From Mycobacterium sp. (lineage in GTDB: Bacteria; Actinomycetota; Actinomycetes; Mycobacteriales; Mycobacteriaceae): DNA of 64,000 nucleotides. Positions 58,557 through 61,437 of the stretch are shown piece by piece (position 1 is the first letter of the stretch; each line of letters begins with the position of its first letter). The notes beneath the pieces were generated by a model that saw nothing but the letters and a program-made list of their open reading frames with translations, was not told the origin of the DNA and did not search any database. The stretch spans positions 68,526 to 132,525 of the forward strand of contig NZ_SCRH01000030.1 in the NCBI RefSeq assembly GCF_004298145.1, in the 5' to 3' direction. Both the position numbers and the translations under genes were made by a program.

Positions 58557-60166
58557 GCACCATCTTTGACATCCGCAACGTGCGGCTCCCGAAGCTGTCC
58601 CGGGCGTCGGTGATCATCGGGTCCCTGGTGATCGTGCTGGCCCTCGTCGTCGGTTATATCGGTTGGCGGCTCTACGAAAAGCTGACGAACAACAGCGTGG
58701 TGGCCTACTTCCCGGCAACGAATGCGCTCTACAAGGGCGACAAGGTCCAGATCATGGGCCTGCGGGTGGGTGCGATCGACAAGATCGAGCCGACCGGCGA
58801 CAAGATGAAGGTCACCTTCCACTACGAGAACAAGTACCGGGTGCCGGCCAACGCGTCGGCGGTGATCCTCAACCCCACCCTGGTCGCGTCGCGCGCCATT
58901 CAGCTGGAGCCGCCGTATAAGGGTGGGCCGGTACTGGCCGACAACGCCGTGATCCCCGAAGAGCGCACCCAGGTGCCGGTCGAGTGGGACCAGCTGCGCA
59001 ACAGCATCACCAACATCATCTCGAAGCTGGGTCCCACACCCGAGCAGCCGAAGGGCCCGTTCGGTGAGGTCATCGAGTCGTTCGCCGACGGGCTGGCCGG
59101 CAAGGGCAAACAGATCAACGCGACCTTCAGCAACCTGTCGAAGGCGTTGACCGCGCTGAACGAGGGTCGCGGCGACTTCTTTGCGGTGGTGCGCAGCCTG
59201 GCGCTGTTCGTCAACGCGCTGCACCAAGACGACCAGCAGTTCGTCGCGCTCAACCAGAACCTGGCTGACTTCACCACCCGGCTCGCCCACGACGACACCG
59301 CCCTCGCCCGCGCGGTGCAGCAGTTCGACGGCCTGCTCACGACCGTGCGGCCGTGGCTGGACCAGAACCGCGGAGTGCTGACCCACGACATCAACAACCT
59401 GGCGACCGCGACGAACACGCTGCTGCAACCGGATCCGCTGAACGGGCTGGAGACCGCGCTGCATGTCACTCCGACGGCCGCGTCGAACATCAACCAGATT
59501 TATCACCCGGCCCAGGGGGCCGTCGTCGGCCTGCCGGCGATCCAGAACTTCGCCAACCCGATGCAGTTCATCTGTAGTGCGATTCAGGCCGGCAGCCGGT
59601 TGGGTTATCAGGAGTCGGCCGAACTGTGCGCCCAGTACCTGGCGCCGGTCCTCGACGCGATCAAGTTCAACTATCCGCCGTTCGGCATCAACCCGTTCAG
59701 CACCGCGGCGACGCTGCCCAAGCACGTGGCCTATTCCGAGCCGCGGTTGCAGCCGCCCAACGGATACAAGGACACCACCGTCCCGGGCATCTGGGTGCCG
59801 GACACCCCGACGTCGCACCGCAACACCCAGCCGGGCTGGATCGTCGCCCCGGGCATGCAGGGCCAGCAGGTCGGGCCCATCACCGCGGGCCTGATGACCC
59901 CGGAGTCGCTGGAAGAGCTCATGGGTGGGCCGAACATCGAGCCCGTGCAGTCGAACCTGCAGACCCCGCCGGGGCCGCCGAACGCCTATGACGAAAACCC
60001 GATCGTGCCGCCCATCGGGCTCAACGCCCCGGTGCCGATCCAGCCGCCACCGCCGGGGCCGGGCGTGATACCGGGTCCGGTCGCGCCGACACCGGCGCCG
60101 GTGTCGGCGCCCGCGCCGACCGCGGGTGGCCCGGCGTCGCCCGCTGACTTCGGAGGTGGCCAGTGA
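58553..60166 (+). CDS. mce1D: Mce protein Mce1D
   Basis: LYKGDKVQIMG..VG.I, PTLVASR, PVEWD; proline-rich tail. Confidence 0.92.
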   Translation: MSTIFDIRNVRLPKLSRASVIIGSLVIVLALVVGYIGWRLYEKLTNNSVVAYFPATNALYKGDKVQIMGLRVGAIDKIEPTGDKMKVTFHYENKYRVPANASAVILNPTLVASRAIQLEPPYKGGPVLADNAVIPEERTQVPVEWDQLRNSITNIISKLGPTPEQPKGPFGEVIESFADGLAGKGKQINATFSNLSKALTALNEGRGDFFAVVRSLALFVNALHQDDQQFVALNQNLADFTTRLAHDDTALARAVQQFDGLLTTVRPWLDQNRGVLTHDINNLATATNTLLQPDPLNGLETALHVTPTAASNINQIYHPAQGAVVGLPAIQNFANPMQFICSAIQAGSRLGYQESAELCAQYLAPVLDAIKFNYPPFGINPFSTAATLPKHVAYSEPRLQPPNGYKDTTVPGIWVPDTPTSHRNTQPGWIVAPGMQGQQVGPITAGLMTPESLEELMGGPNIEPVQSNLQTPPGPPNAYDENPIVPPIGLNAPVPIQPPPPGPGVIPGPVAPTPAPVSAPAPTAGGPASPADFGGGQ

Positions 60167-60287
60167 GGCGCGTGACGAGCGCGGTGCGCGCGAGGAGCAA
60201 GCCGAACCGAGGGCCAGTGAGGCGCGTGACGAGCGCGGTGCGCGCGAGGAGCAAGCCGAACCGAGGGCCAGTGAGGCGCGGGACGAG
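60158..60287 (+). repeat. 54-bp in-frame tandem repeat (MIRU-type) at the mce1D-lprK junction
   Basis: Unit GTGAGGCGCGTGACGAGCGCGGTGCGCGCGAGGAGCAAGCCGAACCGAGGGCCA at 60163 and 60217, partial copy at 60271. Confidence 0.93.
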
Positions 60288-61437
60288 GCCGATCCTTCAC
60301 CGGTCCTGGCAGGGGCTGGTGCTGCTGGTGACCGCGATGGTGCTGAGCTCGTGTGGCTGGAAGGGCATCTCGAACGTCTCGATTCCGGGCGGCCCCGGCA
60401 GCGGCTCGGGCTCGATGACCGTCTATGTGCAGGTGCCCGACACCCTGGCGATCAACGGCAACTCCAAGGTGATGGTGGCCGACGTGTTCGTCGGCTCGAT
60501 CAAGGCCATCCAGCTGAAGAACTGGGTGGCCACCCTGACGCTGGGCTTGGACAAGCACACCAAGCTGCCCAAGAACGCCACCGCCAAGATCGGCCAGACC
60601 TCACTGCTGGGTTCTCAGCACGTCCAGCTCGCCGCACCGCCGAATCCGTCGCCCGAGCTGCTGAAGGACGGCGACACGATTCCGCTGAAGAATTCGTCGT
60701 CGTATCCCACCACCGAGCAGACGCTGGCCAGCCTGTCGCTGATCCTGCGTGGCGGCGGCATCCCGAACCTGGAGGTGCTGCAGAACGAGGTCTACAACAT
60801 CTTCAACGGGCGCGGAGACCAGATCCGGTCCTTGCTGGGCAAGCTGGACACCTTCACCACCCAGCTCAACGCGCAGCGCGATGACATCACCCACGCCATC
60901 GACTCCACCAACCGCTTGCTGACCTACGTGGGTGGCCGGGCCGACGTCCTGGACCGGGTGCTCACCGACGTCCCGCCGCTGATCAAGCATTTCGCCGACA
61001 CCAAAAACCTGCTGATCAACGCCGTCGATTCGGTGGGACGGCTCAGCCAGGCCACCGACCAGTACCTGTCGGAGGCGCGCGGCCCGTTGCACCAGGATCT
61101 GCAGGCGTTGCAATGCCCGCTCAAGGAGCTCGGCCGTGGCGCGCCGTATCTGATCGGCGCGCTGAAATTGATCCTCACTCAGCCGTTCGACATCGACACC
61201 GTTCCCAAGCTGTTCCGCGGTGACTTCATCAATGTGACGCTGACGCTGGACGTGACTTACAGCGCCGTCGACAACGCGTTCCTGACCGGGACCGGATTGT
61301 CGGGAGCACTGCGGGCGCTCGAGCAGTCGTTCGGGCGTGACCCGGAGACGATGATCCCCGACGTCCGCTACACGCCGAACCCGAATGACGCCCCGGGTGG
61401 ACCGCTGGTGGAAAGGGCGGACAGAAGCCAATGCTGA
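60163..61437 (+). CDS. lprK: Mce lipoprotein LprK (Mce1E)
   Basis: Lipobox LSSC after a hydrophobic h-region; MCE domain NSKVMVADV.VG.I. In-frame GTG starts at 60163, 60217 and 60271. Confidence 0.9.
   Translation: MRRVTSAVRARSKPNRGPVRRVTSAVRARSKPNRGPVRRGTRPILHRSWQGLVLLVTAMVLSSCGWKGISNVSIPGGPGSGSGSMTVYVQVPDTLAINGNSKVMVADVFVGSIKAIQLKNWVATLTLGLDKHTKLPKNATAKIGQTSLLGSQHVQLAAPPNPSPELLKDGDTIPLKNSSSYPTTEQTLASLSLILRGGGIPNLEVLQNEVYNIFNGRGDQIRSLLGKLDTFTTQLNAQRDDITHAIDSTNRLLTYVGGRADVLDRVLTDVPPLIKHFADTKNLLINAVDSVGRLSQATDQYLSEARGPLHQDLQALQCPLKELGRGAPYLIGALKLILTQPFDIDTVPKLFRGDFINVTLTLDVTYSAVDNAFLTGTGLSGALRALEQSFGRDPETMIPDVRYTPNPNDAPGGPLVERADRSQC

What the first reader, a model, noticed from the sequence alone, without database searches (positions are those of the whole stretch)
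60158..60290. In-frame VNTR that rewrites the LprK/Mce1E signal peptide and the mce1D-lprK coupling
Seen: each 54-bp unit recreates CCAGTGA, so there are three GTG starts in the lprK frame and three TGA stops in the mce1D frame. Only the first GTG has a strong SD (GGAGG, 6 nt) and overlaps the real mce1D stop. Starting there adds two copies of VRRVTSAVRARSKPNRGP (6 basic residues each) before the h-region and LSSC lipobox. Known: n-region length and charge affect Sec export, and Mce1E is the lipoprotein subunit of the Mce1 lipid importer. Inference: copy number could tune LprK amount or export and hence Mce1 assembly, acting as a contingency locus.
Basis: partly seen in the sequence, partly recalled or inferred. 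Interest (0 to 1): 0.62.

Follow-up and report, generated by a model that had tools for sequence, protein, structure and literature searches.

The report
In-frame minisatellite in LprK signal peptide
A 54-base repeat sits exactly where the mce1D gene stops and the lipoprotein gene lprK (mce1E) starts; it is a real, copy-variable, MIRU-like minisatellite found at this junction in many slow-growing mycobacteria, it most likely only lengthens the cleaved export signal, and nothing shows that it acts as a switch.

Summary
Window 60158-60287 holds two perfect 54-bp units plus a 22-nt partial copy. Each unit recreates CCAGTGA. The first GTG (60163) overlaps the mce1D stop and follows GGAGG by 6 nt.

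It is not a private duplication. Homologous units sit at the same mceD-stop/mceE-start junction in dozens of Mycobacterium species (0 to about 4.4 copies), and at paralogous mce operons, including one in this genome (C25:3168-3301).

- **Frame:** 75 of 78 orthologous junctions are stop-free and in frame from the overlapping start to the lipobox cysteine. Internal GTG/TGA are often lost. Translation from the first GTG through the array is therefore the best reading.
- **Mini-ORF layout:** in two species the unit is instead a separate mini-ORF whose TGA overlaps the real start, which is the classical MIRU layout.
- **Copy number:** it differs among near-identical proteins, including M. avium forms of 393, 405 and 411 aa.
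- **Constraint:** the unit shows no codon-level constraint (pN/pS 1.26). It has a small hairpin with compensatory changes.

Verdict: a junction-anchored, MIRU-like coding minisatellite that extends the cleaved signal-peptide n-region. The contingency-locus idea is untested and has no support here.

The parts
58553..60166 (+). mce1D (MCE family protein, 537 aa); stop TGA at 60164-60166
   Evidence: ORF list; NCBIfam TIGR00996 E 7e-89; operon layout fadD-yrbEAB-mceA-F
60152..60156 (+). Shine-Dalgarno-like GGAGG, 6 nt upstream of the first GTG (also encodes the Gly-Gly of the mce1D C-terminus)
   Evidence: anti-SD duplex -10.8 kcal/mol; the same GGAGG(T/C)GG motif precedes the overlap in other mce operons of the genome
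60163..60166 (+). GTGA overlap: lprK start (GTG) and mce1D stop (TGA); site of translational coupling
   Evidence: 70 of 78 orthologous junctions have GTGA and 4 have ATGA
60163..60216 (+). repeat unit 1 (54 nt, 18 codons VRRVTSAVRARSKPNRGP), in codon register
   Evidence: covariance model R1 79.3 bits, E 6e-15
60217..60270 (+). repeat unit 2, identical to unit 1
60271..60287 (+). partial third unit, which is the native 5' end of lprK (VRRGTR...); the third GTG at 60271 gives the 388-aa form
   Evidence: 0-copy species begin with the same VRRGT/VRRAT motif
60176..60194 (+). predicted hairpin of unit 1 (C-G, tandem G.A, GCGCG-GUG-CGCGC); the same in unit 2 at 60230-60248
   Evidence: covariation, (94.9% paired; 43 double-change cells against 12.7 in shuffles); no thermodynamic support (z about 0)
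60163..61437 (+). lprK / mce1E, longest ORF (424 aa); mature protein starts at Cys64
   Evidence: NCBIfam TIGR00996 E 1e-83; 85-96% identical orthologues
60343..60354 (+). lipobox L-S-S-C (CTG AGC TCG TGT) after the h-region GLVLLVTAMVL
   Evidence: read; conserved as LSSC/LTSC in all orthologues
61431..62981 (+). mce1F, overlapping the lprK stop

Best explanation
The repeat is a junction-anchored, MIRU-like minisatellite that belongs to the mceD/mceE boundary of the mce1-type operon and its close paralogues in slow-growing mycobacteria. Its unit is 54 nt (18 codons), has no stop in the lprK frame, and begins with the GTGA where mce1D stops and lprK starts. Ribosomes finishing mce1D therefore re-initiate at 60163 as in repeat-free species. 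They read through the units, and each unit adds 18 mostly basic residues to the n-region of the LprK lipoprotein signal peptide. The signal peptide is cut off at the lipobox cysteine, so the mature Mce1E subunit is unchanged. Near-identical units expand and contract by slippage or unequal recombination, which gives copy-number alleles among close relatives. The element persists because it obeys a frame rule that keeps coupling intact: either an in-frame fusion or a mini-ORF ending on the true start. Shown here: the anatomy, conservation, in-frame rule, copy-number variation, lack of codon-type constraint and hairpin covariation. Inferred: the start site used, cleavage of the extended signal peptide in this organism, and the small phenotypic effect.
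For: The array is real. All nine mce operons of the genome keep an overlapping mceD stop/mceE start. Homologous units lie at the orthologous junction in 39 of 78 loci, with 0 to about 4.4 copies. 75/78 junctions are in frame and stop-free from the overlap start to the lipobox, with lengths of 77-317 nt, and the three exceptions are metagenome bins. Internal boundaries often read CTG, CAG or CCG. The unit family occurs only at mceD/E junctions: two loci in this genome, one or two loci in 50 of 300 genomes of the genus, on three paralogue types. In L104/L124 and L123 the unit forms a 22-codon mini-ORF whose TGA overlaps the real GTG, as described for MIRUs (PMC12548453; PMC3184786). Copy-number alleles occur within clusters at 90% identity or more: 397/433/451 aa, 424/442 aa and 396/414/432 aa. 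M. avium has forms of 393, 405 and 411 aa. Within-array identity has a median of 0.98 against 0.78 between loci. pN/pS in the lprK frame is 1.26, against 0.185 for the gene body. Mce1E of M. smegmatis is resolved from the lipobox Cys onward and no N-terminal peptides were detected (10.1101/2022.12.08.519548).
Against: There is no direct evidence for the start codon used. RefSeq-type annotations in M. avium and M. colombiense start at internal ATGs (386 and 390 aa). A 54-nt unit preserves frame by itself, and some deletions (27 nt) may be mechanistically biased, so in-frame conservation is weaker evidence than the raw count suggests. Unit positions 1-45 evolve more slowly than synonymous sites (0.15-0.20 against pS 0.335) and a hairpin covaries. 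This hints at a function beyond mere tolerance. An n-region of 50 residues carrying about 16 basic residues and no acidic ones is unusual, and its effect on export is unknown.
Confidence: 0.65

Rival explanations
1. Tuning or contingency locus: copy number sets how much LprK is made or exported, through n-region length and charge or through hairpin arrays just downstream of the coupled start. This would adjust Mce1 (and paralogous Mce) transporter assembly, and selection would maintain the variability.
For: Copy number varies among close relatives. The element is kept at the same junction in at least 50 species and three paralogous operons. Unit positions 1-45 are more conserved than synonymous sites, and a hairpin covaries. 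The site is the one that controls mceE initiation.
Against: An in-frame 54-nt unit cannot switch a gene on and off. About half of the species have no full unit and many carry only remnants. The peptide shows no purifying selection. The mature protein is unchanged. There is no expression or phenotype data. The hairpin has no thermodynamic support.
Confidence: 0.17
2. Untranslated spacer: LprK starts at the last GTG (60271) or another internal codon by independent initiation. The units would then be a non-coding intercistronic minisatellite, and their in-frame state would be a by-product of a unit length divisible by three.
For: Database annotations choose internal starts in M. avium and M. colombiense. 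GTG2 and GTG3 are preceded by a weak SD-like GAGGG. The unit shows no codon-type constraint.
Against: Internal start codons are not conserved across species. Indels of many sizes are all multiples of three. When the frame is broken, the unit ORF ends exactly on the true start. The GTGA overlap at the 5' edge of the array is conserved in 74/78 loci. With no stop in frame, ribosomes re-initiating at GTG1 would read through anyway.
Confidence: 0.12
3. Assembly artefact or mis-estimated copy number in this short-read draft genome.
For: Many contigs of this assembly end in about 120 nt of similar 53-61-bp repeats. The perfectly periodic stretch here (about 123 nt) is close to typical assembler k-mer sizes. 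Reads could not be checked.
Against: The array lies inside a long contig. Homologous arrays with 1-4 units occur in many independent assemblies, including complete genomes.
Confidence: 0.05

Closest known systems
MIRU-VNTR minisatellites of Mycobacterium (Supply et al. 1997, as summarised in PMC3184786 and PMC12548453)
   Same: Unit of about 50-bp class in tandem arrays inside an operon, in one orientation. The 5' edge is the 4-nt stop/start overlap, and that tetranucleotide is repeated at each unit. An ORF within the unit is coupled to the neighbouring genes. It has an internal G+C-rich inverted repeat. Copy number is variable among strains. In two species the unit forms the textbook coupled mini-ORF.
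   Different: It is not interspersed: this unit family occurs only at mceD/mceE junctions, at one or two loci per genome. Sequence similarity to the genome's other MIRU-like arrays is marginal (E about 0.4-1). The period is 0 mod 3 with no stop, so the unit is usually fused in frame to the downstream gene and extends a signal peptide rather than forming a separate mini-ORF. It is conserved at the same site across many species and across paralogous operons.
Simple-sequence contingency loci (phase-variable genes of Haemophilus and Neisseria; from general knowledge)
   Same: Repeat-mediated, heritable and reversible length changes at the 5' end of a gene for an envelope protein.
   Different: The unit is 54 nt, not 1-9 nt. 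Every change keeps the frame, so there is no on/off switching. No expression differences are shown. The encoded segment is removed from the mature protein.
In-frame junction repeats expanding lipoprotein signal peptides in other Actinomycetota (earlier scan notes e1-4751146 and e1-2149941, unchecked AI notes)
   Same: Tandem duplication of a stop/start junction that lengthens a lipoprotein signal peptide in frame; a frame rule (0 or 2 mod 3) makes the extra starts harmless.
   Different: Those are lineage-private duplications of local sequence. This one is a conserved unit family shared by many species and by paralogous operons, and it has a covarying hairpin.

Membership tests
MIRU (mycobacterial interspersed repetitive unit) sensu Supply 1997 | 40-100 bp unit in direct tandem arrays | tested here: met
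   54-bp unit, 2.4 copies; 1-4 full units in other species
MIRU (mycobacterial interspersed repetitive unit) sensu Supply 1997 | Lies between co-transcribed genes of an operon, in a fixed orientation relative to transcription | tested here: met
   Always between mceD and mceE on the coding strand in all loci examined
MIRU (mycobacterial interspersed repetitive unit) sensu Supply 1997 | Unit carries an ORF whose start and stop overlap the stop and start of the flanking genes (4-nt overlap, tetranucleotide direct repeats) | tested here: inconclusive
   The start overlap (GTGA) is met everywhere. The stop overlap is met only in L104/L124 and L123. In the window and most species the unit ORF has no stop and is fused to lprK
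MIRU (mycobacterial interspersed repetitive unit) sensu Supply 1997 | Interspersed: tens of related copies at many loci in a genome | tested here: not met
   nhmmer and the covariance model find this unit family at only two loci in the own genome and at one or two loci in other genomes, all mceD/E junctions
MIRU (mycobacterial interspersed repetitive unit) sensu Supply 1997 | Sequence similarity to the MIRU consensus | tested here: inconclusive
   Compared only with the genome's own 95 minisatellites of 45-62 bp. The best non-mce scores sit at the 99th percentile of shuffles, with nhmmer E 0.4-1, and share a loose GAYGAG-hairpin-CGARAG core. It was not compared with the M. tuberculosis consensus
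MIRU (mycobacterial interspersed repetitive unit) sensu Supply 1997 | Copy number polymorphic among strains (VNTR) | tested here: met
   Length alleles in steps of 18 aa within protein clusters at 90% identity or more; M. avium 393/405/411 aa
Phase-variable contingency locus | Repeat changes shift the frame or promoter spacing to switch expression | tested here: not met
   The unit is 54 nt, and all observed length variants except three suspect metagenome bins and the mini-ORF form keep the frame
Phase-variable contingency locus | Expression or phenotype differs with repeat number | not testable with these tools
Bacterial lipoprotein signal peptide (Lgt/LspA substrate) | Positively charged n-region, hydrophobic h-region, lipobox [LVI][ASTVI][GAS]C | tested here: met
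   Basic n-region, GLVLLVTAMVL, L-S-S-C at 60343-60354; conserved in all orthologues. Cleavage is inferred from M. smegmatis Mce1E
mce1 operon / Mce1E (LprK) | fadD5-yrbE1A-yrbE1B-mce1A-F gene order, with the fifth MCE gene a lipoprotein | tested here: met
   AMP-binding FadD 51069-52673, two MlaE permeases and six TIGR00996 MCE genes. The protein is 85% identical to the representative of the cluster holding the M. avium protein named LprK

The most novel reading that the evidence does not exclude
The 54-nt unit is a conserved cis-acting RNA module: a hairpin plus a nearly invariant GAGGAG, placed 13 nt after the coupled start. It has been kept at the mceD/mceE boundary of several paralogous Mce transporters since before these species diverged. 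Its copy number would act as a heritable rheostat for the Mce-D:Mce-E translation ratio or for local mRNA processing, and so for assembly of the heterohexameric lipid importer.
Probability: 0.12. Interest if true: 0.65.

Novelty: new variant of a known kind. Interest (0 to 1): 0.38.

Why it matters
It shows a MIRU-type repeat fused in frame to a gene and tied to one kind of gene junction across a genus, rather than interspersed. This illustrates the frame rule that lets such repeats survive inside translationally coupled operons.

Practical consequences:
- Start codons of LprK/Mce1E are annotated inconsistently. The same M. avium allele is listed as 386 aa or 411 aa.
- The locus is a candidate typing marker for non-tuberculous mycobacteria.

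If the conserved hairpin proves functional, it would be a handle on how the subunit ratio of Mce lipid importers is set.

Tried and rejected
- **Thermodynamic support for the hairpin:** single units fold no better than shuffles (z -0.36 to +0.39). The global fold of the junction mRNA was uninformative in this G+C-rich context.
- **Rfam:** no family matched; only a chance miRNA hit at E 0.06.
- **Protein-level selection on the repeat peptide:** rejected. pN/pS is 1.26 and third codon positions are the least variable. The lower pN/pS of 0.56 in the +2 frame is most simply a side effect of the hairpin and of 18 codons of data. The mini-ORF form uses the lprK frame.
- **Private local duplication:** rejected by the paralogous and orthologous arrays.
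- **Member of the abundant interspersed repeat families of this genome:** only marginal similarity.
- **Literature:** searches on lprK, mce1D or mce1E with VNTR or repeat, and on MIRU with mce, found no description of this locus.
- **Earlier scan notes by sequence:** nothing found.
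Full report
**Observation.** TRF reports one array at 60158-60287 with period 54, 2.4 copies and 98% matches. The two full copies are identical, and no such match occurs in 100 shuffles. CCAGTGA recurs at 60160, 60214 and 60268. That gives three GTGs in the lprK frame (60163, 60217, 60271) and three TGAs in the mce1D frame. The first TGA (60164-60166) ends the 537-aa mce1D ORF, and the ORF opened by the first GTG runs to 61437 (424 aa). GGAGG lies 6 nt before the first GTG and pairs better with the anti-SD (-10.8 kcal/mol) than the GAGGG before the other two (-8.0). 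Each unit encodes VRRVTSAVRARSKPNRGP. The native N-terminus follows: VRRGTRPILHRSWQ, the h-region GLVLLVTAMVL, and the lipobox LSSC with Cys at 60352-60354. The operon has the mce1 layout, with an AMP-binding FadD, two MlaE-type permeases and six TIGR00996 MCE genes.

**Context in the genome.** The window is C22:68526-132525 of a 6.14-Mb, 66.7% G+C draft with 75 contigs. The genome holds about 95 minisatellites of 45-62 bp, several families of which look MIRU-like. It has nine mce operons. In every one the mceD stop overlaps the mceE start (GTGA, ATGA or TTGA), usually behind GGAGG. The repeat therefore sits on a conserved translational-coupling site and leaves it intact. A second operon (C25:3168-3301, minus strand; MceE 63% identical) carries a homologous 54-bp x2.5 array at exactly the same place and also in frame (VRRGVSAVGANGKPNRCA). 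With a profile of the unit, these two junctions are the only significant matches in the genome (E 2e-7 or better). Other MIRU-like arrays share only a loose GAYGAG-hairpin-CGARAG core (E 0.4-1).

**Other species.** Eighty orthologous loci from named genomes were fetched. They include M. sherrisii, M. colombiense, M. mantenii, M. triplex, M. genavense, M. scrofulaceum, M. nebraskense and M. palustre; the closest is a metagenome bin at 96%.
- The distance from the mceD stop to the residue after the lipobox Cys ranges from 77 to 317 nt.
- 39 of 78 junctions (77 of the fetched loci plus the window) hold at least one full unit, up to about 4.4. Others hold in-frame remnants such as the 27-nt GKPNRRP piece.
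- 75 of 78 are stop-free and in frame from the overlapping start to the cysteine. 70 start with GTGA and 4 with ATGA.
- The three exceptions are metagenome bins.
- Internal unit boundaries often read CTG, CAG or CCG, so the extra GTG/TGA pairs of this window are incidental.

**Distribution across the genus.** A covariance model of the unit found full units in 50 of 300 sampled genomes, at one or two loci each. All confident loci that I fetched are mceD/mceE junctions. They belong to three paralogue types: C22/mce1-type, C32-type and C25-type.

**The mini-ORF form.** Two C32-type loci from different genomes (L104/L124 and L123) have the unit plus 11 nt as a separate 22-codon ORF. It starts on the mceD stop, and its TGA overlaps the true mceE GTG (65-nt spacing, 2 mod 3). 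[quoted passage not shown] The family therefore exists in two tolerated states. One is an in-frame fusion and the other is a coupled mini-ORF. Both make sense only if ribosomes translate the unit.

- They contain alleles differing by whole units: 397/433/451 aa (0, 2 and 3 extra units), 424/442 aa and 396/414/432 aa.
- M. avium has 411 aa (subsp. paratuberculosis, avium and hominissuis; hundreds of contigs), 393 aa (no extra unit) and 405 aa (an in-frame 6-aa deletion).
- The same M. avium allele is also annotated as a 386-aa LprK from an internal ATG, and a M. colombiense allele as either 390 or 408 aa. Start annotation is therefore inconsistent.
- Units within one array are nearly identical (median 0.98), whereas units from different loci are 0.78 identical. 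This is concerted evolution by recent expansion and contraction.

**What is constrained.**
- In the lprK frame the unit has pN/pS 1.26, and its third codon positions are the least variable. The lprK body has pN/pS 0.185 (pS 0.335). The peptide sequence is not conserved as a protein.
- Unit positions 1-45 nevertheless diverge less (0.15-0.20) than synonymous sites, while positions 46-54 are free (0.45).
- A 5-bp stem with a triloop (GCGCG-NNN-CGCGC), extended by tandem G.A and an outer C-G pair, is kept in 94.9% of cells over 97 distinct units. Pair types were GC 67/CG 14, CG 86/GC 5, and CG 54/UA 24 with UG 8. There were 43 double-change cells against 12.7+-2.8 in shuffles, and few in slid controls. 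The U.G intermediates point to the sense strand.
- Against this, single units fold no better than shuffled sequence, the repeats are related by descent, and GCGCGC is self-complementary by nature. I rate the hairpin as likely but unproven. Rfam has nothing.

**Mechanism.** The best-supported reading is that mce1D ribosomes re-initiate at 60163 and translate the units. This gives a 63-residue signal peptide whose 50-residue n-region carries about 16 basic and no acidic residues. The peptide is cleaved at Cys64. In the M. smegmatis Mce1 structure, Mce1E is resolved from the lipobox Cys and no N-terminal peptides were detected (10.1101/2022.12.08.519548). The mature subunit is unchanged, which explains why 0 to more than 4 copies, remnants and free amino-acid change are all tolerated. 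But there is no evidence for it, and on/off switching is impossible with an in-frame 54-nt unit.

**Comparison and novelty.** The element works like a MIRU-VNTR. It fails the 'interspersed' criterion and shows only marginal sequence similarity to other MIRU-like families here. I found no paper describing this junction as a VNTR. Earlier scan notes report analogous junction repeats elsewhere. I class it as a new variant of a known kind, of moderate interest.

Noticed in passing
own genome C25:3168-3301 (outside the window): A paralogous mce operon carries a homologous 54-bp x2.5 in-frame array at its own mceD/mceE junction (VRRGVSAVGANGKPNRCA). Its internal boundaries read CTGA, so they lack a GTG start.
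   Followed up: yes
L104/L124 (one locus fetched twice; about 1420-1560 in L104, minus strand) and L123 (about 1440-1580, minus strand): In two large genomes the same unit plus 11 nt is a separate 22-codon mini-ORF between mceD and mceE, with GTGA overlaps at both ends. This is the classical MIRU layout; in L123 the hairpin is degraded.
   Followed up: partly
whole genome G000 (TRF); in the window at 50074-50203: There are about 95 minisatellites of 45-62 bp in several families, the most abundant with GTGGCGATCGC...GGTCGCCAC inverted ends. About 15 contigs end in roughly 120 nt of such repeats, which looks like assembly breakpoints. One perfect 55-bp x2.4 array lies in the window just upstream of, or overlapping, the ORF 50101-50946 before fadD.
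   Followed up: no
protein P0129 (WP_269199391.1, M. colombiense, 434 aa): This RefSeq protein has an N-terminus that is the antisense translation of the repeat units (HWPTVRLVPRADSARHSP twice) joined to the mature LprK. It is probably a mis-assembly or an annotation artefact at this repeat.
   Followed up: no
proteins P0137/P0135 (M. avium) and P0122/P0130 (M. colombiense): The same allele is annotated with different starts (386 against 411 aa; 390 against 408 aa). Reference annotations tend to pick an internal ATG and drop the repeat-encoded part.
   Followed up: partly
window 60126-60884 (+), third frame: A 252-aa ORF reads the repeat as SEARDERGAREEQAEPRA. The unit's pN/pS is lowest in this frame (0.56). 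This is most likely a by-product of G+C content and the hairpin, not a gene.
   Followed up: partly
loci L114, L118 (C32-type) and L116, C25 (C25-type): Two unit flavours (ATSAVRARSKPN and GVSAVGANGKPN) do not follow paralogue type strictly. This hints at gene conversion or exchange between paralogous junctions.
   Followed up: no
window 54780-55450: An earlier first-reader note (e1-5270950) flags a compositionally odd tract inside mce1A of the same operon. I did not examine it.
   Followed up: no
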